Positions 34,470-48,386 of a stretch of 52,505 bases of DNA are shown here, in pieces. The DNA comes from a virus (Duplodnaviria > Caudoviricetes): the IMG/VR virus record IMGVR_UViG_3300046786_000203, positions 1 to 52,505 of that record. One strand, written 5' to 3'. Numbering within the stretch: position 1 is the first letter of the stretch; every line of letters starts with the position of its first letter. The notes below the pieces were generated by a model that saw only the letters and a list, made by a program, of their open reading frames with translations, was not told the origin of the DNA and did not search any database. Made by a program: the position numbers and the translations under genes.

Positions 34470-34699
34470 TATACCCTCTCTTTCTTTACTCGTCCGATAC
34501 GACTAGCTTTGTTCCAATCGTATTGTACTCCGTCTGGGCACTTGCCGTTCTTTACAGAATCGACACCGAACATACCTACAATCTCAAAGTCCGGACCTGT
34601 GATAGTCACAAACTCGTTCATTACTTTAGCTGTGTGCATTGCTTCATCCAATGTCATTACATCCAATGAAACAATTTTACCTTTTACATTAAACATCAT
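34469..34699 (-). CDS. Hypothetical protein
   Basis: Coupled between the two phosphatase genes. Confidence 0.6.
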   Translation of the reverse strand: MMFNVKGKIVSLDVMTLDEAMHTAKVMNEFVTITGPDFEIVGMFGVDSVKNGKCPDGVQYDWNKASRIGRVKKERV

Positions 34700-35756: not shown

Positions 35757-35775
35757 GTGCTATTTATTACGTGTT

Positions 35776-35992
35776 CCAGGCTACATATAGGAATGACCGG
35801 TCACTCTCACCACAAGAGCCCCGGTCTAAGTTGTTACACTGTCCACGTTCTTTTCCATTTAGACGGGATAGCGTCCCCGCCTTTGTGATTTCTCAAGTCG
35901 CCCTTAAAGAGGGCCTTGCAGTAGATCCAATGCACTGTGCTAGTATCGTATCTAGCAATTACGCACTTCCTTAACGTAGAAGTGTAGCCGGG
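35776..35992 (-). ncRNA. Unassigned structured RNA, family B copy 1 (about 215 nt)
   Basis: Terminal GGCUACA/UGUAGCC stem and several hairpins; motifs shared with 46427..46618. Confidence 0.65.
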
Positions 35993-36044
35993 TATTAGAG
36001 AACAGATGCGTAATTTCTCAGAGGCATCTGCCGTGTTACTCTAT

Positions 36045-37472
36045 TTATGAAAGATCGTAACGATCCTTCATAACTGTCTTCAACATGATAGCTTCTGGTG
36101 TGAAGTCTTCCAAGTCACCTGACAGTACAGATGTTGCAACAGCTGGGCTGAAGCCAGAGACAAGAGCGGTACCACTCTTATCGAACTTGACAGGGGTGTT
36201 GCCGTATGCGGCATTCAAGTTCCAGAACACAACTTTAGGAAGAGTGTAACCTGCTTCGCTAAACTTGCGCGCCATCATCTTGATAGCCGATTCGTCCTTG
36301 CCATCAACAGCTCCGTCGAACTGCATGTCAGAGAAGATAACAAGAGTTTCAGGCATTTCTGCTTGTGGAACCTTGTTAGCAACTGCGGTCTTCAACACTA
36401 GGTCAAACGCCGCATTCAAGTTGGTGTTAGCAACTTCGCCAGTGTTCATTTGGTCAATCTTTTGATTGATGTTACCCTTCAAGTTGACCAACTTAGGAGT
36501 ACGACTGAATGTTAGGAAACAGTCAGCGAACTTACCCTTGTTCTTGTCAGCAAAGTACAAGCCAAGAGACAGAGCAACATCTAGACAGGTCAAGCCTGAC
36601 TTAGAGTTGTAACCGCCTGCTGGACAAGTCATTGAACCTGACGAGTCAACCATTGGCAACACGTTAGCGTCACCGATGTAGTTAGGCAATGCATCCCATT
36701 GGGCTTGCAATGCATCCAACTCAGTCTTAGACATAGTTGAACGGCTGTATCGGTTGATAGCACCCTTCAACACATCGTAGGGGAATACTGCGCCTGCGTT
36801 AATCTTAACACCTGCTTCACCCTTAACCAACTTAGTTACGTATTCAGCGTAAGTTGTACCATTACGGCCAAACGCCTTCTTGTAACGTGCATGTGCCACT
36901 GAAGGTACATGGTTGTAGTTGATGTTATCCCAATCCTTAGCACACATTTGTGTTTCCACAACGTTAGTAAGCGCAACTAGGCTCTTACGATATTGCTTAG
37001 GAGTCATTCCGAAGAATTCACGGATTTCACGTGCGACTTCACCCTTACGAGGAGTCCACTTTGCCGCTAGACCATTACGAGCACGTAGTGCATCGCCAAG
37101 CATAGTGTATGCCTTAGCCTTTACAGGCTGAGTCTTGAACACCAGCAAGTCATCGTAACGACCGATTTCTGGGACCTTTGCCATCAAACGCATAGCGTCT
37201 TCTGGCGCATTCTTTTCTAGATAGACAAGAATGTCACGGAACACTTGACGTTCACCGGAACCACCACGGGCATCACGTGCCCACTGTGCAATACGCAGTG
37301 CGAGGTCAATGTTTTCAGCGTATGCCGCAACGAATGCGGGTACGATGTTCTTACCACGGCTTGCGCCGATGTTATAAAACAAGTCAACACATGCGTTAGC
37401 ACTTGACTTGCGAGCCTTCATACCGTTAGTGGTACGAACTTCTTGATTCTTGATTGCTTCTGCGAATTGCAT
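36045..37472 (-). CDS. DUF2828-family protein (TROVE/Ro60-like helical domain plus vWA)
   Basis: ARDARGGSGER, GRYDDL, AAKWTPR, YRK.L and VPSVA motifs; C-terminal vWA with DSSGSM MIDAS, FSDMQFD, VFWNL, SGFSP. Confidence 0.85.
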   Translation of the reverse strand: MQFAEAIKNQEVRTTNGMKARKSSANACVDLFYNIGASRGKNIVPAFVAAYAENIDLALRIAQWARDARGGSGERQVFRDILVYLEKNAPEDAMRLMAKVPEIGRYDDLLVFKTQPVKAKAYTMLGDALRARNGLAAKWTPRKGEVAREIREFFGMTPKQYRKSLVALTNVVETQMCAKDWDNINYNHVPSVAHARYKKAFGRNGTTYAEYVTKLVKGEAGVKINAGAVFPYDVLKGAINRYSRSTMSKTELDALQAQWDALPNYIGDANVLPMVDSSGSMTCPAGGYNSKSGLTCLDVALSLGLYFADKNKGKFADCFLTFSRTPKLVNLKGNINQKIDQMNTGEVANTNLNAAFDLVLKTAVANKVPQAEMPETLVIFSDMQFDGAVDGKDESAIKMMARKFSEAGYTLPKVVFWNLNAAYGNTPVKFDKSGTALVSGFSPAVATSVLSGDLEDFTPEAIMLKTVMKDRYDLS

Positions 37473-37498
37473 TATAGTTCCTTTCTATGTGATTTGCA

Positions 37499-37554
37499 AC
37501 AGGATGCGCTTTTTTACTATTATGAAAAGTATTAAAGTTGCTGAAAGCATCCTA
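37499..37554 (-). ncRNA. CAGCAA-stem RNA 1 (leader of the DUF2828 gene; CAU anticodon-like loop)
   Basis: AGGAUGC-UUU-CAGCAA...GCAUCCU-GU; inner hairpin with UUCAUAA loop. Confidence 0.75.
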
Positions 37555-37561
37555 AAAAATA

Positions 37562-37590
37562 ATTATACTACAGTTTTGATTATTTGTCAA
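37562..37590 (-). promoter_or_regulatory. Consensus sigma70 promoter for RNA 1 and the DUF2828 gene
   Basis: TTGACA-17 nt-TATAAT. Confidence 0.85.
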
Positions 37591-37606
37591 CTGTAGTAAG
37601 TGTAAA

Positions 37607-37757
37607 ACAGGATCGTTGTTGACTGCTTTTTGAATAGGGCCATCACTCCTATTGCGATAGAAGTATTTCAATAGTTACCTTCAACGTCCGTAGACTCCAA
37701 TAACTACCATACATTCCATCAGTTCCAATAAAGTAAATTATTGCTGAGCCGATCCTA
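37607..37757 (-). ncRNA. CAGCAA-stem RNA 2 (about 150 nt)
   Basis: AGGAUCG-GCU-CAGCAA...CGAUCCU-GU. Confidence 0.75.
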
Positions 37758-37769
37758 AAAATTTGTTAA

Positions 37770-37994
37770 ACGGGATGTTCGGAGAACGTAATTTTATTTT
37801 CTGGTTCTACTGTTAACTCCTAGAACCCTATCAACGATTCACGTTGACTAGTTTGTGTTGTGTCTGTACAAACATCATACTCTGTCTTTCCAAAGAGTCA
37901 TCAGTTCCGTCGCCGTCTAGTTTCCTAGATAAAGTCTTTCGAACCGGCTTCTACTGCATTAGTTGAATGTTTTTTAAATGCTGAAATCATCCCT
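37770..37994 (-). ncRNA. CAGCAA-stem RNA 3 (about 225 nt)
   Basis: GGGAUG-AUUU-CAGCAU...CAUCCC-GU; several internal hairpins. Confidence 0.65.
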
Positions 37995-38017
37995 GATTTC
38001 TGATCTTCAATACAAGT

Positions 38018-38046
38018 ATTGTATCTCATTTGACACTTGCTGTCAA
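38018..38046 (-). promoter_or_regulatory. Sigma70 promoter for RNAs 3 and 2
   Basis: TTGACA-17 nt-TACAAT, overlapped by the CAATAC-N2-GTATTG palindrome. Confidence 0.8.
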
Positions 38047-38066
38047 TCTATTTTGGGTAATGTCTT

Positions 38067-38156
38067 TGGCGGAAGCGGTGAGATTCGAACTCACGGTACT
38101 CGTTAAAGTACGACGGTTTTCAAGACCGTTGCGTTAAACCACTCTGCCACGCTTCC
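38067..38156 (-). tRNA. tRNA-Ser(TGA)
   Basis: Cloverleaf, long variable arm, CCA. Confidence 0.95.
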
Positions 38157-38171
38157 GTTATAAATATACTT

Positions 38172-38336
38172 ATGCACACATATGATGCCATTACAAAAAC
38201 CGGTTTAATGATTCACTTGTCCATGAGTGAGGATAATACCGGTTATATTTTAGTACATGATTTAGTTGATTTAAAACTAACCATGAAATTCTTTACTGAG
38301 TTAGAATCTGCGTTATCTTTTATACATTCATTATGA
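38172..38336 (+). CDS. Small hypothetical protein
   Basis: TATAAATA just upstream; ATGA coupling to the next ORF. Confidence 0.5.
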   Translation: MHTYDAITKTGLMIHLSMSEDNTGYILVHDLVDLKLTMKFFTELESALSFIHSL

Positions 38337-38524
38337 GTACAGAAAATAACTATCTAGGGTTGTATAAATTAGCACATAATTTGCCACCTTATCAACCAAC
38401 TAGTAAATGGTGTGCTAATGCACACTATAAAAATGATGAATTCTTTCTGAAAAAAGAATCAATAAAATTTGTCCCTGATAATATTCTCATAACTAAACGA
38501 GAATTTATCAGAGACAATTTTTGA
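38333..38524 (+). CDS. Small hypothetical protein
   Basis: 63 aa ORF filling the space between tRNAs. Confidence 0.5.
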   Translation: MSTENNYLGLYKLAHNLPPYQPTSKWCANAHYKNDEFFLKKESIKFVPDNILITKREFIRDNF

Positions 38525-38525
38525 T

Positions 38526-38599
38526 TGGCATCCCACCAGGGACTCGAACCCCGACCAACGGTTTTGGAGACCGCTATGCTGCCATTACACCAGCGAGAT
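38526..38599 (-). tRNA. tRNA-Trp(CCA)
   Basis: Cloverleaf, loop CUCCAAA. Confidence 0.93.
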
Positions 38600-38603
38600 A
38601 TGT

Positions 38604-38822
38604 TTATCTTTTACCAATACGTTTGAGATAATCTCTACCAACTAACCCTGCTTCAATTTCTTGAAGTGCAGTCACAGTAGGACCTGCTTTAGTAGTTAGT
38701 TTAGGCTTGTGCCCTCTATGCAACTCTCTTACCCTAGCTGCCGCAATAAGAACCAAATCAAATCTGTTTCCAACTTGATTAACAGCTTCTTCACTTGTGT
38801 ATCGTACTCTGCTTTCGGACAT
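38604..38822 (-). CDS. rpoZ: RNA polymerase omega subunit homolog
   Basis: VGNRFDLVLIAAARVREL...TVTALQEIEAG. Confidence 0.88.
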   Translation of the reverse strand: MSESRVRYTSEEAVNQVGNRFDLVLIAAARVRELHRGHKPKLTTKAGPTVTALQEIEAGLVGRDYLKRIGKR

Positions 38823-38849
38823 TTTTAACTTTCGTTTTGTTGATAAACT

Positions 38850-38925
38850 TGGAGCGGGAAAAGAGACTCGAACTCTCGACATTCACCTTGGCAAGGTGAC
38901 GCTCTACCAACTGAGCTATTCCCGC
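38850..38925 (-). tRNA. tRNA-Gly(GCC)
   Basis: Cloverleaf, CCA. Confidence 0.95.
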
Positions 38926-38932
38926 ATTAATT

Positions 38933-39007
38933 TGGTACCTGGACACGGTTTCGAACCGCGGACCCTCTCCGTGTAAAGGAGACGCTCTACCCCTGAGCTA
39001 TCCAGGC
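38933..39007 (-). tRNA. tRNA-Val(TAC)
   Basis: Cloverleaf, loop UUUACAC. Confidence 0.93.
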
Positions 39008-39019
39008 AATATATTCTAT

Positions 39020-39205
39020 TTAACCACCTTGATTAGAGTCTTTAACATTTCCCCAATCAAGTGTGTTATTTTCTTCTTTAGCGTCTGGGAGAGGAGGGGG
39101 AACATAACGTTCTTTCTTTGGCTTCTCTCCGAAGATTCTGTCCATGTTGTTTTGAAATTCAGTTGGACTCACACTGAATGGACGAGGACGAGAACCTTTA
39201 GACAT
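39020..39205 (-). CDS. Small hypothetical protein
   Basis: MSKGSRPRPFSVS...MDRIFG. Confidence 0.65.
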   Translation of the reverse strand: MSKGSRPRPFSVSPTEFQNNMDRIFGEKPKKERYVPPPLPDAKEENNTLDWGNVKDSNQGG

Positions 39206-39372
39206 TACTTAGCTTCCCTCTTACCGTGTCCTTGACGAGATTCATTTTTTGCAATTTCAACAAAACTACGAATGAATGCGCCTCGCACATGTGCGTCACT
39301 AATAAGTGATGCCGCACGTTTTACTGACTTACTAACTTTGACGGCTTTAGCGTCATAACCTCTACATGTCAT
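39205..39372 (-). CDS. Small basic hypothetical protein
   Basis: AAGGA RBS; MTCRGYDAKAVKVSKSVKRAA... Confidence 0.55.
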   Translation of the reverse strand: MTCRGYDAKAVKVSKSVKRAASLISDAHVRGAFIRSFVEIAKNESRQGHGKREAK

Positions 39373-39394
39373 ACTATCTTCCTTTTGTTAAACT

Positions 39395-39471
39395 TGGTCG
39401 GAGTACAAGGATTCGAACCTTGGACCCCCTGGTCCCAAACCAGGTGCGCTACCAGACTGCGCTACACTCCG
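39395..39471 (-). tRNA. tRNA-Pro(TGG)
   Basis: Cloverleaf, CCA. Confidence 0.95.
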
Positions 39472-39477
39472 AATTGT

Positions 39478-39551
39478 TGGATGCGGGTGACAGATTCGAA
39501 CTGCCGATGCTCCGAGCTTATGAGACTGGAGTGGTGACCGCCCTACCCGCG
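39478..39551 (-). tRNA. Atypical initiator-like tRNA-Met(CAT)
   Basis: C1:A72 mismatch, CUCAUAA loop; shortened D arm and bulged anticodon stem. Confidence 0.7.
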
Positions 39552-39566
39552 CAAACTATTTATATC

Positions 39567-39641
39567 TGGTACGTAATAGAAGATTTGAACTTCTGACCTC
39601 TACAATGTCACTGTAGCGTTCTACCCCTGAACTAATCACGC
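39567..39641 (-). tRNA. tRNA-Val(GAC)
   Basis: Cloverleaf, loop GUGACAU. Confidence 0.85.
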
Positions 39642-39643
39642 AT

Positions 39644-39787
39644 TTATCTTGTCAGTTTTCTAACAAGAGTCAAGAAGTAATATCTGAATCCTCGGTACAC
39701 TGGTACTATAGAAAAATCTAAGTAGATACCAATTTCTTTAGGAATGTGACCGTAAGCTTTATTCAATGTTTCATCAGACTTTGGCAC
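39644..39787 (-). CDS. Small hypothetical protein
   Basis: GGGAG RBS, GTG start (MPKSDETLNKAYGHIPKEI). Confidence 0.5.
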   Translation of the reverse strand: MPKSDETLNKAYGHIPKEIGIYLDFSIVPVYRGFRYYFLTLVRKLTR

Positions 39788-39809
39788 GTTTACTCCCTGT
39801 GTTAATGTT

Positions 39810-39885
39810 TGGTGGAGGTGACAGGGATCGAACCCGCGACCTTCTGAATGCAAATCAGACGCTCTCCCAGTTGAGCTACACCCCC
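39810..39885 (-). tRNA. tRNA-Ala(TGC)
   Basis: G3:U70 pair, cloverleaf. Confidence 0.96.
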
Positions 39886-39937
39886 AAATCTACATACTAC
39901 TTATCTCATTATACTCCGTATGTAAGGGAGAGTTCTT

Positions 39938-40022
39938 TGGTGCGACTGTCCGGAATCGAACCGGAACACCTTGCGGCGAGAGATTTTAAGTCTCTTGTGT
40001 CTACCTATTTCACCACAGTCGC
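39938..40022 (-). tRNA. tRNA-Leu(TAA)
   Basis: Cloverleaf with variable arm. Confidence 0.95.
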
Positions 40023-40028
40023 AAATTA

Positions 40029-40182
40029 ACCATAAATTAGTGTACTCGTATGGCAGACTATAAAGAGATACTATCGTCTTTATTAATATAGTATCATAGT
40101 TAGACTATTGTGTGCACCAATAGTCTAACCGAAGTCTGGCAAATTATATACTAAATTAATTTTGAGTACACTAATTTATGGT
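40029..40182 (-). ncRNA. Long-stem structured element overlapping the tRNA-Leu 3' end
   Basis: Perfect 19-bp inverted repeat 40029-40047/40164-40182 plus an internal 12-bp hairpin. Confidence 0.6.
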
Positions 40183-40262
40183 GCGTAAGGAGAGACTCGA
40201 ACTCTCAATCCTCGCGGCGCTGGCTTCTAAGACCAGAGTGTATACCATTCCACCACTTACGC
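40179..40262 (-). tRNA. tRNA-Leu(TAG)
   Basis: Cloverleaf with variable arm. Confidence 0.95.
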
Positions 40263-40280
40263 AAAAACAAACACATAACT

Positions 40281-40350
40281 TTTTAAAGAACAATCAGCGA
40301 TTTCTCACTGTCAATACATGTATTATATATCAAATTTTAATTGAATTCAA
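40281..40350 (-). promoter_or_regulatory. Promoter followed by an rrn-like boxB/boxA leader
   Basis: TTGAAT-17 nt-TATAAT, hairpin CAGTGA-GAAA-TCGCTG, then TGTTCTTTAAAA. Confidence 0.7.
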
Positions 40351-40363
40351 CTATTTTGGGCAT

Positions 40364-41014
40364 TCATATCAGTAATGATAGAGTACTATTTTTAAACATG
40401 TCACTCCAATAACCTACCTTAGGTATCAAGACCCATAGTTTAGATTCACCAAACACTACTAGTGTTCTGTAATTTCTAACTTCATTTAATGCCTCTGATA
40501 CTCCGGGATGAACACTGACAAAATCATCTCCTACTATCAAATTTGTTTCTGCACCGTATTTAATAATGTCATGCTTGACTCCTTCATAGGAATGCGCGCC
40601 ATCAATAAAAACAAAATCATACTCTTTTTCTTTTGTATGACTTTGACTAGTACCTTGATATACAGACAGTTTATTGTACATTATATCACCGATGCAAAAT
40701 CTAAACGCTTCTAACCAATTCTTTTGTTGAGCAATATGTATAGCAACTTTATACATTGATTCACTGCCGGAACAGTTTGAACTAGCGAAGTCGGGAATGT
40801 TTCTAAATGAGCTCCATGTACGTATATCCTCAAATGGATCTATTACTTCCAAAGATACTGAAGAATCTTTTCCGTTGTATAACGCTGTAGTAGACCTACC
40901 TAAAAAACAACCTATTTCTAACATAGAACCATTTTTAGGGACATGTTTAGCTAATATGGTTAGTATACGTAAATCATTTTGCGTCATCCAACCTGGGATA
41001 TCGTTACTACTCAT
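40364..41014 (-). CDS. Class I SAM methyltransferase (Methyltransf_24-like)
   Basis: LEIGCFLGRST, VIDPF, FIDGAHSYEGV and GDDF motifs. Confidence 0.85.
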   Translation of the reverse strand: MSSNDIPGWMTQNDLRILTILAKHVPKNGSMLEIGCFLGRSTTALYNGKDSSVSLEVIDPFEDIRTWSSFRNIPDFASSNCSGSESMYKVAIHIAQQKNWLEAFRFCIGDIMYNKLSVYQGTSQSHTKEKEYDFVFIDGAHSYEGVKHDIIKYGAETNLIVGDDFVSVHPGVSEALNEVRNYRTLVVFGESKLWVLIPKVGYWSDMFKNSTLSLLI

Positions 41015-41028
41015 TTATAAATTAATCT

Positions 41029-41102
41029 TGGAGCGGGGTAAGAGAATCGAACTCTCCGCATCAGCTTGGAAGGCTGAGGTATTACCACTATACGAACCCC
41101 GC
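41029..41102 (-). tRNA. tRNA-Gly(TCC)
   Basis: Cloverleaf, CCA. Confidence 0.95.
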
Positions 41103-41148
41103 ATATTATTACTACTTATCACTATGCAATCGCAAGTGATTTAAATCT

Positions 41149-41225
41149 TGGTGCCGCCTAATGGAGTTGAACCATTGACCCCCGCCTTATCAAGACGGTG
41201 CTCTAACCAACTGAGCTAAGGAGGC
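41149..41225 (-). tRNA. tRNA-Ile(GAT)
   Basis: Cloverleaf, loop UUGAUAA. Confidence 0.93.
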
Positions 41226-41243
41226 ATGTATAAATACTGTTCT

Positions 41244-41795
41244 ATGAACAAATACTTATCTAAACTATCATTAAACATTGAACCATTAACCATTGACATT
41301 CGTGACAAGAACGATAAGGGCTACCGTCATTCTGAATTGGGGATGGATGTTATCAATCCCGAAATGAAAGCTTTCTTGGAAAGCTTGGGTGTCGGTGTGC
41401 TAATGGTTGAAGTTTTTTATACTCCTCCCTTTATGACTCGCGGTATACATATTGATACTGCTCAAGGTGGGGATATAACTAAACTTAATTGGGTATATTG
41501 CGAAGACACTCATATCATGAATTGGTATGAACCAAAACCTGATGCACCTCGCAATATTGCACTGACTGCTGTATCTACTAACTATGTAAGTTACAAAGAA
41601 TCAGAAGTAAACCTGGTTCATTCTGAAAAGATGACTACTAACAATGTAATAGTGCAAGTGGGCACTCCACACAATGTAAGAAATCTACGTTACCCTCGTT
41701 GGGCACTATGTTTCACCATCTGTTACTTAAAAGACAAGTCTAGAATTACTATAGCCGAAGCACAAGAGATTTTCAAAGACTATCTAATAAACTGA
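41244..41795 (+). CDS. Cupin/2OG-Fe(II) oxygenase-like protein
   Basis: IHID...KLNWVY...VQVGTPHNV.N..R; paralog of 50189..50722. Confidence 0.65.
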   Translation: MNKYLSKLSLNIEPLTIDIRDKNDKGYRHSELGMDVINPEMKAFLESLGVGVLMVEVFYTPPFMTRGIHIDTAQGGDITKLNWVYCEDTHIMNWYEPKPDAPRNIALTAVSTNYVSYKESEVNLVHSEKMTTNNVIVQVGTPHNVRNLRYPRWALCFTICYLKDKSRITIAEAQEIFKDYLIN

Positions 41796-41872
41796 TGGTG
41801 CCTCGACCGGGACTCGAACCCAGAACCTACCGATTATGAGTCGGGTGCTCTAACCAATTGAGCTATCAAGGC
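41796..41872 (-). tRNA. tRNA-Met or Ile2 (CAT)
   Basis: Cloverleaf, loop CUCAUAA. Confidence 0.9.
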
Positions 41873-41880
41873 ATCAAATA

Positions 41881-41944
41881 ACAGGATGCATTTTTACGGT
41901 TTTGATTAAAAGTCAAATGTATAAATGTTGCTGGTAGCATCCTA
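41881..41944 (-). ncRNA. CAGCAA-stem RNA 4 (Lys UUU anticodon stem-loop)
   Basis: AGGAUGC-UAC-CAGCAA...UUUGA-CUUUUAA-UCAAA...GCAUCCU-GU. Confidence 0.78.
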
Positions 41945-42124
41945 AATCTTTTTGTCTATGCTTTTACCTTTATCATCGGTGTTTTTTACAACACCTTTTG
42001 ATGTATAAACTTCACATGTAACAATTTCTTTTCTTGTTACCGGATCTTGCAAAGACTTGTAAACTCGTGTTTGAAAATTATCACGCACATAGTCTACGAC
42101 ATGTTGTATAGCTGTTACTATCAT
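41942..42124 (-). CDS. Small hypothetical protein
   Basis: ATAAATA just upstream; 60 aa. Confidence 0.5.
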   Translation of the reverse strand: MIVTAIQHVVDYVRDNFQTRVYKSLQDPVTRKEIVTCEVYTSKGVVKNTDDKGKSIDKKI

Positions 42125-42144
42125 AGATAGTATTTATAATCAAC

Positions 42145-42762
42145 TCACTTCATAGTGACTTCATTGGGCTTATGTCGTTCACCTTTAAATTGAAACTCTT
42201 CCTTCAACTTAAAGTTAGTTACAAAAACCACTCTAGGTATTCCTGACAAATTACTATGAACATAATGCAACAACCATCCGGGAAAAATTAACATTTGACC
42301 GGACTCTGGGCGATGCCTATATGCATTGTAATGCTTATGTGAATCTAAACTAACTAATCCTAAGTTAGCACGTGGATCAATAAATTCTAAATCACCTGAT
42401 GTAGGGGTCACTTGACAGTAATACACACCTGATAAATGCGAAGACCTATGATTATGCATCCTTAAGTCTTGATTCGCTAATCTTGAATCACACCAACCTT
42501 CTTCCATGTGAAAGAACTCAGGCTTGTATTCAAATTCAGGATGACATTCATTTGCAAAGGTTGCCGCATTTGTCAAAAACAAATCATGCAACGTTTTGAT
42601 TGCCGGAACGTCATGTCGAATATTCCAAATATCATTATACAATCTAAAATTGTACTTGTTATCTGTCAACCCATCGACCTTCAGTAAGTCTTCATTTAGT
42701 GTACTAGCATTTTCTACTTCATAGATACCTATATTAGTAGGAAACAATTTCAAGTGAGCCAT
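42145..42762 (-). CDS. Putative 2OG-Fe(II) oxygenase (TIGR02466-like)
   Basis: HNH..HLSGVYY, GDLEFIDPR and LIFPGWLLHYV motifs. Confidence 0.85.
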   Translation of the reverse strand: MAHLKLFPTNIGIYEVENASTLNEDLLKVDGLTDNKYNFRLYNDIWNIRHDVPAIKTLHDLFLTNAATFANECHPEFEYKPEFFHMEEGWCDSRLANQDLRMHNHRSSHLSGVYYCQVTPTSGDLEFIDPRANLGLVSLDSHKHYNAYRHRPESGQMLIFPGWLLHYVHSNLSGIPRVVFVTNFKLKEEFQFKGERHKPNEVTMK

Positions 42763-42775
42763 GTTGTTCCTTTAT

Positions 42776-42864
42776 TATTGAAAAACACACTCTTAAACCT
42801 TCCTTCAGCGTTTAGTCGCTATCTCCCTTACTAATCGGGCGTAGGGTAAGTGTGTTTATCAATA
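42776..42864 (-). ncRNA. Long-stem structured element
   Basis: TATTGAAAAACACACT / AGTGTGTTTATCAATA inverted repeat around a GC-richer core. Confidence 0.45.
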
Positions 42865-42872
42865 GTAACGTA

Positions 42873-42988
42873 TACCATATAGAAACATACTCTGCAGGAA
42901 TTGAACCTGCCCACCAGATACTATTGATCCGGCTGTAATCCGCTACATCTGCCTGGCCAGAAGCATTTGAATATGTTTTTATATGGTA
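42873..42988 (-). ncRNA. Long-stem element with a T-arm, overlapping the tRNA-Lys 3' end
   Basis: 20-nt arms (18 identical positions); inner GCAGG-UUCAAUU-CCUGC. Confidence 0.55.
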
Positions 42989-43058
42989 GGGGCACAGAGA
43001 ATCGAACTCTGATAGACCGGTTAAAAGCCGGATATTCTAGCCGTTGAATTATACCCCC
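42984..43058 (-). tRNA. tRNA-Lys(TTT)
   Basis: Cloverleaf, loop CUUUUAA. Confidence 0.93.
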
Positions 43059-43061
43059 ATA

Positions 43062-43136
43062 TGGTCCCTCCGCTCAGAATTGAACTGAGTCTTCTCGGAT
43101 TAAGAGTCCGGTATGCTACCGTAACATCTCGAAGGG
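43062..43136 (-). tRNA. tRNA-Lys(CTT)
   Basis: Loop CUCUUAA; atypical positions 8-9. Confidence 0.85.
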
Positions 43137-43198
43137 ATGGATCGTAAATAGTTTTCTTTTACGTGCCATCCCTGACCATACGGGGGTCAAGAATGACA

Positions 43199-43222
43199 CT
43201 ATCGTTTACCTGAACGTTTCAT
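43199..43222 (-). CDS. Putative 7-aa leader peptide MKRSGKR
   Basis: Promoter at 43252-43280, AAGGAG RBS, 15-bp hairpin directly after the stop. Confidence 0.45.
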   Translation of the reverse strand: MKRSGKR

Positions 43223-43276
43223 GTCGTTCTCCTTTTCTTTAAGTTATATGTATTGTAGCACTGCTACGATTTATTG

Positions 43277-44497
43277 TCAACTCTTTTGTTGCAGTGATAT
43301 CCCAAAAGTTTCTTGGAAATTATCATTGCGTATTGAATCCATCTTTTCAGTAAAGTCTGAGAACAAAGAAGGATCACCAGGAACTCTATCTAATAGGTTT
43401 CTTTTGATGCCCTTAAGCTCTGTAGCAAAAATTAAAAAGTTAGGTGCTGTTAGTATCTCAACAGCCTTATCTATTTCTTCTATTGCTTTCTCTCTTAACT
43501 CACCGGTCAATCTATTATAATTCAAGTGTTCTGCGAACCTAACGTGATAGCACTTTGTCTGAATAGTGTTGTTGTCTGCGTACAGTCTCATTAAGAAACT
43601 AGCAAGACTTGACACATCCAATAGTGTATACGCTGAGATTGCAGTGTTGAAAAATATATTGAACGGCTTACCAAGCTTGTTGAATTCAATTACGTTTTTC
43701 TCTATAGTACTCCACGGAGTACCTGTACGAATATACTCTGCTGTTTTGCCTACACCGTCTATACTCATTACAAATTCAATACTTTTGAATTTCTTTAGTC
43801 TTTCAACAAATAACGGATTATAGACACTACAGTTAGTAAACAACTCTAAATCAATTCGATGACTGATGTTGTTATCAATCAAGTGATCCAAGTACTCATA
43901 GTATTCTTTGATGATGAAGGGTTCTCCACCAGTTAAACAAACTAAGCGTAAGTTTTTCGATGTTAATGATAACTCTTTTAGTTCTTCAACTGAGTGGCGA
44001 TCAATCGTTACGATAGACTTTTTTGCCTCTCTATCAATAACACTGATCTCCGATACAAAAGGTAGATTGTGTTCAATCTTTTCTTTTGCCCATTCTGAAC
44101 TAGAGGTTTCGTCACACATCTTGCATTTCATGTTGCAAAGGTTGCTGAATCTAAACTCTAGGCGATAAGGATCAGTAGGACTATTTTCATCGAACTTATT
44201 ATAAAACCATTGATCTTCATACTCTGGTTCTGGACCAGTGTAATAGTAATGCCACCAGGCACCCCTAGTACTTTTGAGACCTTGGTTCTCAATGTTCTTA
44301 CAAACCTTGCACGGTTCCGGAACAGTTCCGGACATCATGTCTGTTTTTAATTTCTTAAGCCAATCACCATTGATGTATTCTTGCGGTGATGCTTCAAATT
44401 CGTTTCTAATGACATGACACGGGCTAGGAGAATTCATTTGATAATAAATGTGACTCCACGGTGCCGGACAAAAGAACTTTTCTGAAAATTTAGCCAT
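43277..44497 (-). CDS. Radical SAM protein with twitch/SPASM-like Cys domain
   Basis: CNMKCKMC (CX3CX2C), GGEP, SIDG; N-terminal FCPAPW and CKVC. Confidence 0.9.
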   Translation of the reverse strand: MAKFSEKFFCPAPWSHIYYQMNSPSPCHVIRNEFEASPQEYINGDWLKKLKTDMMSGTVPEPCKVCKNIENQGLKSTRGAWWHYYYTGPEPEYEDQWFYNKFDENSPTDPYRLEFRFSNLCNMKCKMCDETSSSEWAKEKIEHNLPFVSEISVIDREAKKSIVTIDRHSVEELKELSLTSKNLRLVCLTGGEPFIIKEYYEYLDHLIDNNISHRIDLELFTNCSVYNPLFVERLKKFKSIEFVMSIDGVGKTAEYIRTGTPWSTIEKNVIEFNKLGKPFNIFFNTAISAYTLLDVSSLASFLMRLYADNNTIQTKCYHVRFAEHLNYNRLTGELREKAIEEIDKAVEILTAPNFLIFATELKGIKRNLLDRVPGDPSLFSDFTEKMDSIRNDNFQETFGISLQQKS

Positions 44498-44554
44498 TAC
44501 ATATCCTTGCTGTAGTAAGTGATATTTATCGTCATACAACACTGTCAAAGATAT

Positions 44555-44630
44555 TGGAGGCCAGGGTAGGAGTTTAACCTACCTTATACCGAGTTTGCAA
44601 TCCGGCGCATAAACGCTCTGCCACCTGGCC
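44555..44630 (-). tRNA. tRNA-Cys(GCA), atypical T loop
   Basis: Loop UUGCAAA, U73; T loop UUAAACU. Confidence 0.85.
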
Positions 44631-44648
44631 ATATTCATAAATAACTGA

Positions 44649-45191
44649 ATGAAATACTATCATTCTGTTTCAATTAATAATCTGTCTGTTATTCAAGCTA
44701 AAGCATTTAAGTTATTCCCAATGCAACACTTGAACAAGACTAAACTATTCTATCCACCAAATAACATAGAGTTATTTTTAAGTATACCTGAACTCAAAGA
44801 AGAATTAGATAGATTAGGTTGGACAGAACATGTAGATTCGTTTGGTTTTTATATCGTACAAAAAACAAAAGGATCCACACTTCATACTGACACTGGTGAT
44901 CGTAAGTACAGTTTTAACATACCTATACTAAATTGCAAAGAAACACTAGTCAACTTTTATACAACTGACTCTGAACCCGAAGTTCAGATACACGGTGAAG
45001 GAGTTGACTATAACAAATACGAGGTCGATAAATGTACCTTAGTTGATTCATTAGAAATGAATACACCTAACATTATCAATGTAAAAGAGGTACATAACAT
45101 TGTCAATGACAATCATAGACCTAGAATTACTTTATTAATCAGATTAAAGAGTACTCTAAATCTTGACCATTTATTTTATGAAACACATTGA
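44649..45191 (+). CDS. Cupin/2OG-Fe(II) oxygenase-like protein
   Basis: LHTD...FNIPI...VHNIVN...RITL. Confidence 0.65.
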   Translation: MKYYHSVSINNLSVIQAKAFKLFPMQHLNKTKLFYPPNNIELFLSIPELKEELDRLGWTEHVDSFGFYIVQKTKGSTLHTDTGDRKYSFNIPILNCKETLVNFYTTDSEPEVQIHGEGVDYNKYEVDKCTLVDSLEMNTPNIINVKEVHNIVNDNHRPRITLLIRLKSTLNLDHLFYETH

Positions 45192-45636
45192 ATACTTAGA
45201 ACTACCATCAGTACCCGAGCGTTTTTTAAAACCAGTTGAGGAGATAATTGCACTACCTCTAAAAGAAATGACTGCGGTTCCTGAAGTATATCATAACGTG
45301 TTTAACACTAGATACGTTGAAGAAGACTTAAACGAATGGTTAAAAACTATTTTTGATTTTCCTATGTATGCACAATATCAATTAATATACAGAGGAATCC
45401 CTGTACACAAGGACAAAGACGATAGACTGCTTGCCTACAACTACTTATTAGCTACGGGTGGTGACAACGTAATCACGACCATATATGATGACAACATGAA
45501 ACTATTACAATTTGAAAAATTGCAGTTAAAACGTTGGCATAGAATAGAAACAGGATATTTTCATGGTATACATGGAATATCAATAGGCTCAGTAAGGTGT
45601 AGCATAAGCATAACACCAGTAACTGGCAGAGAGTGA
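45178..45636 (+). CDS. Cupin/2OG-Fe(II) oxygenase-like protein
   Basis: VHKD...YNYLL...WH.I....FHGI. Confidence 0.65.
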   Translation: MKHIEYLELPSVPERFLKPVEEIIALPLKEMTAVPEVYHNVFNTRYVEEDLNEWLKTIFDFPMYAQYQLIYRGIPVHKDKDDRLLAYNYLLATGGDNVITTIYDDNMKLLQFEKLQLKRWHRIETGYFHGIHGISIGSVRCSISITPVTGRE

Positions 45637-45717
45637 GGGATTCGAACCCTCGGTGCTAGTTTTTGCTAACACGCTTTCTTAGCAGGAAAGTGATTTCAGC
45701 CTCTCATCCAACTCTCT
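45624..45717 (-). tRNA. tRNA-Ser(GCT)
   Basis: Cloverleaf, long variable arm. Confidence 0.93.
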
Positions 45718-45725
45718 ATATTGAA

Positions 45726-45939
45726 TTTGTAAGTCGTAGCGTCCCTCATATCGCTACCATTTTCCCATGTAATTAAGCCGGCTGGGTCAAGATTCGTCAC
45801 TCGGGATCTATCCAGATGATACTCACTGTATGCCGATCCCACTCAAGCGATCAGCCGGGCAACGAACCCGCATCCTTTTACTATATCAGTAGTTCGAACA
45901 TACCTTTATAGCGTGACTTCTCTTGCTGACACTTACAAA
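45726..45939 (-). ncRNA. CAGCAA-stem RNA 5 (about 215 nt, divergent closing stem)
   Basis: UUGUAAG-UGU-CAGCAA...CUUACAA; internal CCGGCUG/CAGCCGG and GGGAUC/GAUCCC stems. Confidence 0.65.
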
Positions 45940-45942
45940 ACT

Positions 45943-46019
45943 TGGCGCACCGTAGGGGACTCGAACCCCTGGCCTCTTGCGTGACAGGCAAGCGATCTAA
46001 CCAACTGAGCTAACGGTGC
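45943..46019 (-). tRNA. tRNA-Asp(GTC)
   Basis: Cloverleaf, G73. Confidence 0.95.
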
Positions 46020-46028
46020 ATGAATTTG

Positions 46029-46283
46029 ATCCAGATTACACGGCGCCAGAAAATAGGTACCCTATTCTAGCTTCTGTCCGGTGGCAGCCTTTTCCGCTGA
46101 CAATACTTTTCTTACCCCTACTGGACCGACTTACTCTCGCATCGTCAATCGTATCTGCTTGAACTACCAATGCACACTTGATTGAAGACCACGCAGTCTC
46201 GCATGGCTCGGTTTCCATCTACTCATATTACTAGGTATTGCCTTAGTATTCGTATTAGTTTCTATATCACCCATTGTAACTAA
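46029..46283 (-). ncRNA. Unassigned structured RNA, possible family B copy 3
   Basis: Shares AGUUAC, GUGCAUUGG, GGACAG and 3' UGUA..CUGGA with the other copies; boundaries uncertain. Confidence 0.4.
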
Positions 46284-46328
46284 TAAACATTGAGAAAGAG
46301 CTTGCATTGCAAGATTCCTATTTGCTCT

Positions 46329-46415
46329 TGGTGGAGACGACTGGAGTCGAACCAGTAGTGCCTTTCGGGCGGCGGATTTACAGTCCACTGGGGTTACCAA
46401 TTTTCCTACATCTCC
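46329..46415 (-). tRNA. tRNA-Tyr(GTA)
   Basis: Cloverleaf with variable arm. Confidence 0.93.
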
Positions 46416-46426
46416 AAAATAGTGAT

Positions 46427-46618
46427 AAGCTACTGGGTTCCACGCCAGCCCTTAATTGAGCAGTTACTCTGTCCATCTCCATTTATTCAAAGTCTGTGTG
46501 CAGTTGAGCTTCTGCCTATCAGAGTCTGCTGGGGTAGTTTCCATCCCTGCGCTAACGGTCTTCTGCCACCGGATCTCTATCGTTAATCATACGCTACTTT
46601 GAAGAAAGTAGTAACTGG
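46427..46618 (-). ncRNA. Unassigned structured RNA, family B copy 2 (about 190 nt)
   Basis: CCAGUUAC-hairpin-GCGUA...ACGAUA...UAAAUGGA..UGGACAGAGUAAC. Confidence 0.65.
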
Positions 46619-46622
46619 ATTC

Positions 46623-46697
46623 TGGAAGAGCCACGGGGAATCGAACCCCGCTTCTCAGGATGAAAACCTGATGTCCTAACCGATAGACGATGGCTCC
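46623..46697 (-). tRNA. tRNA-Glu(TTC)
   Basis: Cloverleaf, loop UUUUCAU. Confidence 0.92.
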
Positions 46698-46699
46698 AT

Positions 46700-48378: not shown

Positions 48379-48386
48379 ATTATAAA

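What the first reader, a model, noticed from the sequence alone, without database searches (positions are those of the whole stretch)
35776..46618. Second unassigned structured RNA family (about 200 nt, 2-3 copies) with a conserved alternative pairing
Seen: 35776-35992 and 46427-46618 share, in order, CC(G/A)G(C/U)UAC, a hairpin, GCGUA, ACGAUA, variable hairpins, UAAAUGGA, UGGACAG(U/A)GUAAC, a hairpin and a terminal GUAGC(C/U). In both, the 5' segment can pair either with the GUAAC after GGACAG or with the terminal GUAGC, suggesting a switch or a two-step reaction. 46029-46283 shares some motifs and may be a third copy. One copy lies right after the DUF2828 gene. I do not recognise the family.
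Basis: partly seen in the sequence, partly recalled or inferred. Interest (0 to 1): 0.72.

Follow-up and report, generated by a model that had tools for sequence, protein, structure and literature searches.

The report
Pseudoknot-rich RNA of phage tRNA operons
Two stretches of this fragment of an uncultured giant phage encode members of an apparently undescribed family of compact, knot-rich RNAs of about 205 bases that sit among the phage's tRNA genes; what they do is still unknown.

Summary
The family is real; the proposed switch is not supported. Copy A (35791-35994, minus strand) and copy B (46409-46623, minus strand) are paralogues. A model built only from A-type relatives finds B, and a model built only from B-type relatives finds A. 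Copy C (46029-46283) matches neither model.

I collected 91 distinct A-type and 80 distinct B-type sequences from uncultured viral contigs. They support a fold of four consecutive H-type pseudoknots, a small GUAAC hairpin and a two-part terminal hairpin. GUAAC is a hairpin loop. The "terminal GUAGC" is not the same site in A and B.

The genes lie in tRNA operons. 72 of 110 B-type copies start 1-6 nt after a tRNA end. 58 of 115 evaluable A-type loci directly follow a Ro60-like gene. Rfam has no match, and the Y RNA hallmarks are absent. Contigs from freshwater RNA libraries cover both copies.

Best guess (about 30%): a stable RNA cut out by the tRNA-processing enzymes that works with the phage's RNA-repair proteins. 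A tRNA-end-cleaving ribozyme is the boldest rival. This scan had flagged the same RNA in other genomes.

The parts
35791..35994 (-). Copy A (A-type), whole RNA, about 204 nt
   Evidence: R1 216.9 bits. R2, which was built only from B-type sequences, scores it 34.2 bits with E 1.5e-9. Single-sequence fold z-score -3.16.
35964..35992 (-). A: pseudoknot 1. It consists of the 5' CCCGG (35988-35992), hairpin H1 CACUUC/GAAGUG (35979-35984 / 35964-35969) and its loop UACGUUAAG (35970-35978).
   Evidence: All 6 H1 pairs change on both sides, 96.4% paired. The 5' flank x H1-loop pairing passes the permutation test at 2/2000. In copy A itself only CG/CG (2 bp) can form.
35938..35963 (-). A: pseudoknot 2. 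S1 is CGUA (35960-35963) with UACG (35947-35950). S2 is UGCUAG (35952-35957) with CUAGCA (35938-35943). Loop 3 is AUA.
Evidence: S2: all 6 pairs change on both sides (helix 2). S1: 26 distinct duplexes in 77 sequences, permutation 0/2000.
35882..35937 (-). A: pseudoknot 3. H3 is CAGU/ACUG (35934-35937 / 35919-35922). Its loop (35923-35933) pairs with J4/5 (35882-35893). Hairpin H4 (35894-35918) is inserted between them.
   Evidence: In H3 all 4 pairs and in H4 all 9 pairs change on both sides. Loop x J4/5: 33 distinct duplexes, 0/2000. In copy A I read UUGGAU x AUC(A)CAA, 6 bp with one bulged A, by eye; the longest contiguous run is 3 bp.
35845..35881 (-). A: pseudoknot 4. H5 spans 35862-35881. 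Its loop pairs with the segment just 5' of GGAC (35845-35849), across the A-rich linker UAAAUGGAAAAG.
   Evidence: 45 distinct duplexes in 77 sequences, 0/2000. In copy A the contiguous pairing is only ACG/CGU, 3 bp.
35829..35844 (-). A: conserved GGAC followed by the small hairpin H5b (AGU-GUAACA-ACU).
   Evidence: Read from the alignment: the two stem pairs switch between A-U and G-C and between G-C and A-U across sequences.
35795..35826 (-). A: terminal hairpin H6, GACCGG-GG-CUCU-UGUGGUG-AGAG-UGA-CCGGUC.
   Evidence: Outer stem: all 6 pairs change on both sides, 99.8% paired. Inner stem: 3 of 4 pairs change on both sides.
46409..46623 (-). Copy B (B-type), whole RNA. The core runs to the end of H6 at 46426.
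   Evidence: R2 217.9 bits. R1, which was built only from A-type sequences, scores it 17.5 bits with E 1.5e-4 over its full length.
46594..46619 (-). B: the 5' UCCAG (46615-46619) and hairpin H1 CUACUUU/AAAGUAG with loop CUUC (46601-46604).
   Evidence: The pseudoknot 1 pair at alignment columns 9-26 reads CG 70, GC 5, UG 4 and AU 1. The single A-U is this window's copy B.
46572..46593 (-). B: pseudoknot 2. S1 is CGU (46591-46593) with ACG (46581-46583). S2 is GAUU (46585-46588) with GAUC (46572-46575).
   Evidence: Both stems are 100% paired in 80 sequences. The third S1 pair reads UG 55, UA 14, CG 11.
46494..46571 (-). B: H3 CGGU/ACCG (46568-46571 / 46556-46559), H4 (46528-46550) and H5 (46494-46522).
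   Evidence: H3 and H5 are invariant in the 80 sequences, which were gathered with a pattern that overlaps H3. H4 is a variable hairpin.
46475..46493 (-). B: the A-rich linker and the 3' strand of pseudoknot 4, which pairs with the H5 loop.
   Evidence: B-type: 27 distinct duplexes in 79 sequences, 65 of them 5-6 bp long, permutation 0/2000. In this window's copy only CUC/GAG is contiguous.
46426..46474 (-). B: GGAC, hairpin H5b (AGAGUAACUGCU) and terminal hairpin H6 (UAAG-GG-CUGG-CGUGGAAC-CCAG-UAG-CUUA).
   Evidence: H6: 7 of 8 pairs change on both sides. This 3' domain is the part best conserved between the A and B types.
46623..46697 (-). tRNA-Glu whose CCA end lies directly upstream of copy B.
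   Evidence: ARAGORN. In the family, 72 of 110 B-type copies start 1-6 nt after a same-strand tRNA.
46329..46415 (-). tRNA-Tyr starting about 10 nt after the terminal hairpin of copy B.
   Evidence: ARAGORN. 84 of 110 B-type copies end 6-9 nt before the next tRNA.
36045..37472 (-). Ro60-like gene (DUF2828 + DUF7788/vWA) directly upstream of copy A.
   Evidence: Pfam. PHROG 850 'RNA-binding protein'. Model with mean pLDDT 64.6; its best 12 Foldseek matches are Ro60/TROVE structures, E 3e-8 to 7e-4.

Best explanation
Copies A and B are two paralogous members (A-type and B-type) of an undescribed family of phage non-coding RNAs of about 205 nt.

Shown:
- Each RNA folds into four consecutive H-type pseudoknots with A-rich third loops.
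- These are followed by a conserved GGAC, a tiny hairpin with a GUAAC loop, and a two-part terminal hairpin.
- The genes lie in the tRNA operons of uncultured jumbo phages that turn up in freshwater samples.
- B-type copies are wedged between two tRNAs. A-type copies either follow a tRNA or directly follow the Ro60-like gene at the edge of the tRNA array.
- Contigs from RNA libraries cover both copies.

Inferred (biogenesis): the RNA is cut out of the operon transcript by the enzymes that mature the flanking tRNAs, with 3'-end processing of the upstream tRNA and RNase P at the downstream tRNA. The 5' pseudoknot and the 3' hairpin then shield both ends, so it accumulates as a stable, compact RNA.

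Inferred (function, about 30% likely): it acts in trans as the RNA partner of the phage's tRNA/RNA repair-and-surveillance island. That island holds the Ro60-like ring protein, a PNK-like kinase and phosphoesterases. In this reading it works like a Y RNA, as a protein tether or gate, without being a Y RNA by structure.

It is not a two-state switch.
For: Family and fold:
- The two models detect each other's copy.
- There are 91 distinct A-type sequences (78 clusters below 93% identity) and 80 distinct B-type sequences.
- A-type nested helices: 92.6% of cells are paired, 38 of 40 pairs change on both sides, and the covariation score is 0.621 against 0.193 when shuffled and at most 0.095 when slid.
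- B-type: 98.7% paired, 10 pairs change on both sides, 0/500 shuffles reach the observed values.
- Pseudoknot pairings beat partner-swapped controls: 2/2000, 0/2000, 0/2000 and 0/2000 for pseudoknots 1 to 4. Four control region pairs give 589-1678/2000. B-type pseudoknot 4 gives 0/2000.

Context:
- 72 of 110 B-type copies start 1-6 nt after a same-strand tRNA, and 84 end 6-9 nt before the next tRNA.
- 58 of 115 evaluable A-type loci have the Ro60-like gene directly upstream, at a median of 54 nt. Among loci found by DNA pattern alone the figure is 32 of 89.
- Of the 57 A-type loci without the gene, 37 have a tRNA ending within 12 nt upstream and 55 have a tRNA within 300 nt.
- The protein is Ro60-like by fold.
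- Homologues of the neighbouring phosphatase, metallophosphoesterase and PNK-like kinase occur in 127, 153 and 80 of 329 fetched loci.

Expression:
- Contigs from four freshwater RNA libraries cover copy A. One runs continuously from the Ro60-like gene into copy A (X2, 35819-36468).
- One X1 contig spans copy B (46116-46699).
Against: The link to Ro60 is not obligate.
- Two complete genomes (CheckV 100%) carry B-type RNAs but have no DUF2828 or TROVE gene.
- One complete genome has the gene and no RNA.
- B-type copies are never adjacent to the gene; only 9 of 111 share a locus with it.
- Only 25 of the 80 Ro60-like loci carry the RNA.
- The two cultured phages with a DUF2828 homologue that I checked have no such RNA within 4 kb.

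The Y RNA hallmarks are missing. The same window also holds other candidate Y-like RNAs, for example a weak YrlA hit at 48386-48498, which may be the true Ro60 partners.

In the window's own copies several pseudoknot stems are short: pseudoknot 1 has 2 bp in A and in B, and pseudoknot 4 has 3 contiguous bp in both.

No RNA ends could be mapped, because only assembled contigs were available. The tool warns that DNA can be present in RNA libraries and that depth must not be used to rank genes. The permutation tests ignore relatedness between sequences. No binding was tested.
Confidence: 0.45

Rival explanations
1. A large self-cleaving ribozyme that cuts at its own 5' border. It would release the upstream tRNA (or the Ro60-like mRNA) with a finished 3' end, as theta (HDV-like) ribozymes are proposed to do in gut phages. 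The neighbouring phosphoesterase and kinase would then heal the 2',3'-cyclic phosphate and 5'-OH ends.
For: The RNA starts 1-6 nt after the tRNA 3' end in 72 of 110 B-type copies. In 37 of the 57 A-type copies that lack the Ro60-like gene upstream, a tRNA ends within 12 nt. Its very 5' end is conserved and forms a short pseudoknot whose pairs covary: CG 70, GC 5, UG 4, AU 1. Sequence upstream of the border is not conserved, and the upstream tRNA varies in identity. Theta ribozymes have their cleavage site within 5 nt of phage tRNA 3' ends (PMC10879173, passages read). End-healing enzyme genes are frequent neighbours.
Against: The topology is a chain of simple H-type pseudoknots, not the nested double pseudoknot of HDV-like ribozymes. 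No ribozyme family in Rfam matches at E<=10. Only one or two of the 36 tRNAs in the window are followed by it, whereas a cis-acting processing device is expected after each tRNA it serves. About 205 nt with a highly conserved 3' domain is large for such a task. Cleavage was not tested.
Confidence: 0.17
2. An RNA that works on or with tRNAs without a dedicated protein. It could be a scaffold that docks tRNAs, or an RNA-only assembly, in the manner proposed for the large phage RNAs GOLLD and ROOL that also lie beside tRNA genes.
For: The only context shared by both types is the tRNA operon. Complete genomes carry the RNA without any Ro60-like gene. The fold is unusually elaborate for its size. 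The Kretsch et al. preprint 10.1101/2024.12.08.627333 describes GOLLD and ROOL as RNA-only complexes (search listing and start of abstract only).
Against: There is no similarity to GOLLD or ROOL in Rfam searches. It is several times smaller than those RNAs (their sizes are recalled, not checked). I found no conserved motif complementary to tRNA features; the UGG in the terminal loop is not universal. No structural or binding data exist.
Confidence: 0.13
3. A passive, nuclease-resistant module or decoy. The pseudoknot chain would block host exonucleases or soak up a host nuclease or defence protein, protecting the operon transcript or the Ro60-like mRNA.
For: Structured elements sit at both ends, at the very 5' and 3' borders. 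The position at the 3' end of the Ro60-like mRNA would suit a 3' stabiliser. RNA-library contigs cover the RNA.
Against: Sequence conservation of unpaired motifs (GGAC, the GUAAC loop, the terminal loop) across both types is more than a roadblock needs. Two distinct paralogous types are kept side by side in the same phages: the window, L162 and L200.
Confidence: 0.1
4. One reading: a switch or two-step reaction in which the 5' segment pairs alternately with the GUAAC after GGACAG or with a terminal GUAGC.
For: The 5' UUAC-type segment and the GUAAC region are complementary in many members. The best contiguous duplex is 5 bp or longer in 48 of 77 sequences.
Against: The complementarity is no better than with swapped partners (578/2000). 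GUAAC is the loop of a hairpin whose stem covaries. The terminal GUAGC is a different site in A and B and is lost in A's nearest relatives. There is no conserved 5'/3' pairing (918/1000).
Confidence: 0.04
5. A divergent member of a known family: a Y RNA or YrlA, a tmRNA or tmRNA piece, or RNase P RNA.
For: Copy A lies next to a Ro60-like gene on the same strand. A chain of four pseudoknots recalls tmRNA. By eye, ACAGAAC-like and CCCGG motifs recall RNase P RNA.
Against: None of these Rfam families hits the loci at E<=10, even with lax filters. There is no CGAA motif, terminal stem, T-arm, CCA end or tag reading frame. The CCGG stem of the terminal hairpin covaries with its own 3' strand, not with the 5' CCCGG.
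Confidence: 0.03

Closest known systems
Bacterial and phage Y RNAs (YrlA, YrlB, Yrl1, Yrl2), the RNA partners of Ro60/Rsr
   Same: Copy A and half of the evaluable A-type loci lie directly beside a Ro60-like gene, on the same strand and in an RNA-repair neighbourhood. Y RNAs are likewise encoded within a few kb of Ro60 (PMC4201824 and PMC12135203, passages read).
   Different: There is no 5'/3' terminal stem and no tRNA-like T/D module. The CGAA / GNCGAAN0-1G motif occurs in only 22 and 3 of 78 A-type sequences and 12 and 1 of 80 B-type sequences, at scattered places. Rfam's YrlA model does not hit the loci. The fold is a chain of pseudoknots. B-type copies and two complete genomes lack the gene altogether.
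Theta ribozymes (minimal HDV-like ribozymes next to phage tRNAs; PMC10879173)
   Same: A structured phage RNA whose 5' border lies within a few nt of a tRNA 3' end (paper passages). Pseudoknots are present.
   Different: About 205 nt rather than a minimal small ribozyme. It has serial H-type pseudoknots instead of one nested double pseudoknot. It comes from freshwater jumbo phages, whereas the paper reports over 80% of theta ribozymes in gut phages. It follows only one or two tRNAs per array. Self-cleavage is untested.
GOLLD and ROOL, large ornate phage-associated RNAs near tRNA genes
   Same: Elaborately folded RNAs of unknown function encoded next to tRNA genes in phages (Rfam family descriptions and my recall; the preprint was seen as a search listing only).
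   Different: No Rfam hit. Much smaller, with a different architecture. No evidence of multimer formation.
tmRNA
   Same: A run of four H-type pseudoknots, a gene placed among phage tRNA genes, and probable maturation by tRNA-processing enzymes.
   Different: No tRNA-like domain, no CCA end and no tag-coding stretch. The Rfam tmRNA models do not hit the loci.
Stable RNAs of the T4 tRNA cluster (species 1 and 2, rnaC/rnaD) and of T5
   Same: Non-tRNA stable RNAs encoded inside a phage tRNA cluster and released by tRNA processing, with function unknown. This is recalled from memory; an earlier scan note names the T4 and T5 stable RNAs.
   Different: No sequence similarity: blastn of A and B against 50,697 phage records found nothing relevant. 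I did not compare structures.

Membership tests
Y RNA / YrlA | Encoded within about 4 kb of a Ro60 orthologue on the same strand | tested here: inconclusive
   Met for copy A (51 nt downstream) and for 58 of 115 evaluable A-type loci. Not met for copy B (9.1 kb away), for 102 of 111 B-type copies, or for two complete genomes without the gene.
Y RNA / YrlA | GNCGAAN0-1G (CGAA) Ro-binding motif near the 5' end | tested here: not met
   GNCGAAN0-1G occurs in 3 of 78 A-type and 1 of 80 B-type sequences. CGAA occurs in 22 of 78 and 12 of 80, at scattered positions.
Y RNA / YrlA | Long stem formed by the 5' and 3' ends | tested here: not met
   5' end x 3' flank: own 4.21 against permuted 4.33, with 918 of 1000 permutations reaching the observed value.
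Y RNA / YrlA | tRNA-like module (T arm, D arm) and a match to the Rfam YrlA model | tested here: not met
   No RF02553 hit at copies A or B at E<=10. The only weak YrlA hits are elsewhere in the window (48386-48498 and 51013-51066).
Y RNA / YrlA | Bound by Ro60 | not testable with these tools
   Needs co-purification or gel shift. The complex predictor takes proteins only.
HDV-like / theta ribozyme | Cleavage site (5' border) within 5 nt of a tRNA 3' end | tested here: inconclusive
   The border lies 1-6 nt after a tRNA in 72 of 110 B-type copies. Whether it is a cleavage site is unknown.
HDV-like / theta ribozyme | Nested double-pseudoknot fold (P1, P1.1, P2, P3, P4) | tested here: not met
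   The strand order found is 1-2-1'-2', repeated four times. No HDV family hit in Rfam.
HDV-like / theta ribozyme | Self-scission | not testable with these tools
   Needs in vitro transcription.
tmRNA | tRNA-like domain with T arm and 3' CCA; tag reading frame | tested here: not met
   None is present in the parsed sequences. RF00023 and RF04321 do not hit the loci.
GOLLD / ROOL / RNase P RNA / other Rfam families | Match to the family covariance model | tested here: not met
   Across 4227 Rfam models there is no gathering-score hit, and no hit with E below 1 at copies A or B even with lax filters.
New family (A-type + B-type), as defined here | Full-length match to model R1 or R2, with the pseudoknot chain, GGAC, the GUAAC hairpin and the two-part terminal hairpin | tested here: met
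   Copies A and B are each found by both models. Copy C and the 11013-11164 hit do not qualify.

The most novel reading that the evidence does not exclude
This is a new class of large natural ribozyme tied to tRNA maturation. It either cuts itself off the 3' end of the upstream tRNA (a glmS-sized counterpart of theta ribozymes) or acts in trans on the phage's tRNA precursors. The conserved GGAC / GUAAC / terminal-hairpin domain would be its core, and the neighbouring end-healing enzymes would finish the job.
Probability: 0.15. Interest if true: 0.95.

Novelty: categorically new. Interest (0 to 1): 0.78.

Why it matters
Elaborately folded RNAs with strong covariation and no known relatives are rare, and in the past such RNAs have often proved to be ribozymes, riboswitches or parts of RNA-protein machines. 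This family has at least 171 distinct sequences. It occurs in complete phage genomes of 360-520 kb and is covered by contigs from freshwater RNA libraries. It sits where giant phages keep their own translation and RNA-repair toolkit.

Working out its role would bear on three open questions. Why do jumbo phages carry dozens of tRNAs? How are these long tRNA arrays processed? What do phage Ro60-like proteins do? The four-pseudoknot fold in about 205 nt is also an attractive target for RNA structure determination. The two covariance models made here give a direct way to annotate the family.

Tried and rejected
1. RNAalifold on a plain MAFFT alignment of 16 sequences found only 2 helices. I replaced it with hand-annotated covariance models.

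2. An H1-loop x distal pairing (UACGUU x AACGUG in copy A) looked good by eye. It failed the partner-swap test (1392/2000). It arises from ACGU palindromes, and the distal segment pairs with the H5 loop instead.

3. Pairing of the 5' CCCGG with the CCGGGG of the terminal hairpin, a P4-like RNase P resemblance, was rejected. The hairpin stem covaries with its own partner while CCCGG stays constant.

4. Readings of the terminal hairpin as a D-arm, T-box or kink-turn, and of its loop as pairing with J4/5 or with a tRNA ACCA end, are not conserved across members.

5. Copy C has no model hit. The 11013-11164 hit (16.1 bits) lies antisense inside a 1213-aa ORF and covers only 152 nt, so I treat it as chance.

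6. Alignment A6 has 415 columns, too wide for model building, so I built R2 from the B-type alignment instead.

7. Column-wise counting of pseudoknots 3 and 4 was abandoned because registers shift by one column between subgroups. I used per-sequence duplex search with permutation instead.

8. The 41 hits of the 17-mer pattern in cellular genomes contain no full-length member, and about that many are expected by chance. The cultured phages vB_OspM_OC and S13 have no hit within 4 kb of their DUF2828 genes with default filters. blastn against phage records found nothing relevant.

9. RNA-library contigs give no cover over 35401-35801 in any of the four runs, and little over most coding stretches at 41416-45425.

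10. The protein model is only moderate (mean pLDDT 64.6). I use it only for the fold-class call.

11. Literature: searches found no description of this RNA. Supplements are closed, so the phage YrlA tables of PMC4201824 and the motif lists of PMC5737381 could not be checked, and they may bear on novelty.

Full report
**What the window is.** The window is a whole IMG/VR virus record of 52.5 kb. CheckV estimates it as 16% of a genome. It carries 36 tRNA genes on the minus strand between 38067 and 52425. Tucked among them are genes for a radical-SAM enzyme, a 2OG-Fe(II) oxygenase, a methyltransferase and an HNH endonuclease.

Downstream of the array on the same strand lies a 475-aa gene (36045-37472) with DUF2828 and DUF7788 domains. 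Its AlphaFold model has a mean pLDDT of 64.6. Its best 12 PDB matches are all Ro60/TROVE structures, including the Thermus phage phiLo Ro60, with E from 3e-8 to 7e-4. Further downstream come a DSP-type phosphatase, a metallophosphoesterase and an AAA_33/PNK-like kinase. The finding therefore sits in a tRNA and RNA-repair island of a jumbo phage.

**The observation.** Both stretches read on the minus strand. Copy A lies 51 nt after the stop of the Ro60-like gene. Copy B lies between tRNA-Glu (its CCA ends at 46623) and tRNA-Tyr (starts at 46415). The shared motifs are there in the stated order.

A model built from five A-type relatives (R1) finds copy A at 216.9 bits and copy B over its full length at 17.5 bits, E about 1.5e-4. 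A model built from 80 B-type sequences (R2) finds B at 217.9 bits and A over its full length at 34.2 bits, E about 1.5e-9. So A and B are homologous.

Copy C (46029-46283) is hit by neither model at E<=10 with filters off. A 16-bit hit at 11013-11164 lies antisense inside a 1213-aa ORF, and I treat it as chance.

**Relatives.** A search with the Ro60-like protein returned 215 viral-contig stretches, of which the best 80 were kept. R1 found the RNA in 25 of these 80 loci, always directly after the gene.

Two DNA patterns from the conserved 3' domain returned 79 and 112 more stretches. A B-type pattern returned 110. A profile search gave 144 A-type hits in 143 sources, which reduce to 91 distinct sequences and 78 clusters below 93% identity. 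The B-type set has 80 distinct sequences.

Some phages carry both types: the window, L162 and L200. Among five complete genomes of 359-525 kb:
- one has two B-type copies;
- one has one B-type copy;
- one has one A-type copy after the Ro60-like gene;
- one has a single copy 1.1 kb from the gene;
- one has the gene but no RNA.

**The fold.** On the 79-sequence A-type alignment the nested helices are 92.6% paired. 38 of 40 pairs change on both sides. The covariation score is 0.621, against 0.193 for shuffles (0 of 500 reach it) and at most 0.095 when partners are slid.

Reading the sequences side by side showed four further pairings that cross these helices:
- the 5' flank with the H1 loop;
- the linker after H1 with the loop of the next hairpin;
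- the H3 loop with the strand after H4;
- the H5 loop with the strand just before GGAC.

Each turns a hairpin into an H-type pseudoknot with an A-rich third loop. I tested them by asking whether a sequence's own two segments pair better than segments swapped between sequences (n = 77). The observed mean was reached in 2, 0, 0 and 0 of 2000 permutations. Four control segment pairs gave 589-1678 of 2000. The pairings come in 32, 26, 33 and 45 distinct versions; examples are UAGGAU/AUCCUA, UACGAU/AUCGUA and CAGUGC/GCAUUG for the third.

In the B-type, pseudoknot 4 has 27 versions and 0 of 2000 permutations reach the observed value. The key pair of pseudoknot 1 reads CG 70, GC 5, UG 4 and AU 1, and the single A-U is the window's own copy B.

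After the pseudoknots come a conserved GGAC, a two-to-three-pair hairpin with a GUAAC-type loop whose pairs switch between A-U and G-C, and a terminal hairpin made of two covarying stems around a GG/UAG-type internal loop.

There are caveats. The permutation test ignores relatedness, although the controls share that weakness and show nothing. In the window's own copies some stems are short: pseudoknot 1 has 2 bp, and pseudoknot 4 has 3 contiguous bp.

GCGUA and ACGAUA are the two strands of stem 1 of pseudoknot 2. UAAAUGGA is part of the A-rich loop of pseudoknot 4. GUAAC is a hairpin loop.

The terminal GUAGC of copy B is the UAG internal loop plus the first C of the 3' strand of the terminal hairpin. 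In copy A the same letters lie after that hairpin and are already changed in the nearest relatives. The 5' segment is complementary to the GUAAC region, but no more than with swapped partners (578 of 2000). No 5'/3' stem is conserved (918 of 1000). The switch idea has no support.

**Context.** B-type copies are wedged between tRNAs. 72 of 110 start 1-6 nt after a same-strand tRNA (Tyr 44, Glu 16), and 84 end 6-9 nt before the next tRNA (mostly Asp).

Of 115 evaluable A-type loci, 58 have the Ro60-like gene directly upstream, at a median of 54 nt. Among the loci found by pattern alone it is 32 of 89. These are counts of loci, and some contigs were fetched twice. Of the 57 without the gene, 37 have a tRNA ending within 12 nt upstream and 55 have a tRNA within 300 nt.

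B-type copies share a locus with the gene in only 9 of 111 cases and are never adjacent to it. The two complete genomes that have only B-type copies contain no DUF2828 or TROVE match at all. Homologues of the phosphatase, phosphoesterase and kinase occur in 127, 153 and 80 of 329 fetched loci.

**Expression.** The run search listed 22 runs, of which 20 hold part of the stretch. I laid four runs from freshwater RNA libraries of four studies. Their contigs cover copy A. One contig runs from 35819 to 36468, from the Ro60-like gene into the RNA, and one spans 46116-46699 across copy B. These are assembled contigs. They show presence in RNA libraries, not ends, strand or level, and DNA carry-over cannot be excluded.

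**Comparison with what is known.** Rfam (4227 models) gives nothing at the gathering score and nothing below E = 1 at either copy, even when only the RNA itself is searched.

- Y RNAs are the obvious candidates because of the Ro60-like gene. Their defining features are a terminal stem, the CGAA motif and a tRNA-like module (passages of PMC4201824 and PMC12135203). All are absent.
- tmRNA shares only the run of pseudoknots.
- Theta ribozymes share the position at a tRNA 3' end (passages of PMC10879173) but have a different fold.
- GOLLD and ROOL share only the neighbourhood.

Five literature searches found no description of this RNA. Earlier notes of this scan had flagged the same RNA in other genomes, between tRNA-Thr and tRNA-Gly, without assigning it.

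**How it most likely works.** Shown: a conserved, elaborately folded RNA gene inside tRNA operons, present in RNA libraries.

Inferred: it is released by the enzymes that mature the flanking tRNAs, and it is stable because both ends are buried in structure.

My best guess for function, at about 30%, is a trans-acting partner of the repair and surveillance proteins of the island, above all the Ro60-like ring. That would make it a functional analogue of a Y RNA. The evidence against is real: the RNA occurs without the gene, and the window has other Y-like candidates.

The most exciting alternative, at about 15-17%, is a ribozyme that makes the upstream tRNA's 3' end. Self-cleavage assays and end mapping would separate these readings quickly.

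Noticed in passing
It is still an ORF-poor spacer of about 255 nt. Only its first 82 nt are conserved, in loci L316 and L278. It remains unassigned.
   Followed up: partly
window 35998-36036 (minus strand): A hairpin (8-bp stem, 14-nt loop) sits between the stop of the Ro60-like gene and copy A. It recurs in L003, L024, L026, L055, L063 and also in L076, which lacks the RNA. It has no U-run, so it is not an obvious terminator.
   Followed up: no
L043, L051, L052, L065, L066, L023, between the Ro60-like stop and the RNA: A conserved element of about 70 nt, closed by GAUUAGG...CCUAAUC, is inserted between the gene and the A-type RNA. In some loci a second element of about 100 nt follows it.
   Followed up: no
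L012, L014, L038, L047, L062, L064, L067, downstream of the Ro60-like gene: A different conserved structured element follows the gene in these relatives instead of the A-type RNA; it has (C)GCUGA...UCAGCG stems and a GGGAUGGGCUG motif. The gene therefore tends to be followed by some structured RNA, but not always the same one.
   Followed up: no
window 48386-48498 and 51013-51066 (minus strand): Weak Rfam YrlA hits: 29.6 and 20.3 bits against a gathering score of 69. Another note of the scan reads the first as a permuted tRNA-like body. These may be the true Y-like partners of the Ro60-like protein.
   Followed up: no
window 51278-51366 (minus strand): A tRNA-Sec-like hit below threshold, 38.6 bits against a gathering score of 47. 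ARAGORN does not call it.
   Followed up: no
window 33413-35156 (minus strand): An RNA end-healing gene set lies right after copy A: a DSP-type phosphatase, a metallophosphoesterase and an AAA_33/PNK-like kinase. Homologues occur in 127, 153 and 80 of 329 fetched loci around these RNAs.
   Followed up: partly
L008, L009, L030, L027, L042, downstream of the RNA or of the gene: A recurring motif of about 90 nt...CACCCUGCC(C)GAUAAGACAGGCUCU..., follows the A-type RNA, or follows the gene where the RNA is absent.
   Followed up: no
L332 (Cronobacter phage S13, NC_028773.1) 2474-2716: Next to this cultured phage's DUF2828 'RNA-binding protein' gene the record annotates a 113-nt 'tRNA-OTHER' and a 121-nt 'tRNA-Ser'. 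Both are oversized for tRNAs and are candidates for Y-like RNAs.
   Followed up: no
window 46475 joined to 35880 in run X4: An RNA-library contig at depth 220 matches part of copy B, then 33 other letters, then part of copy A (table 5c). It is most simply a related family member from another phage in the same sample.
   Followed up: no
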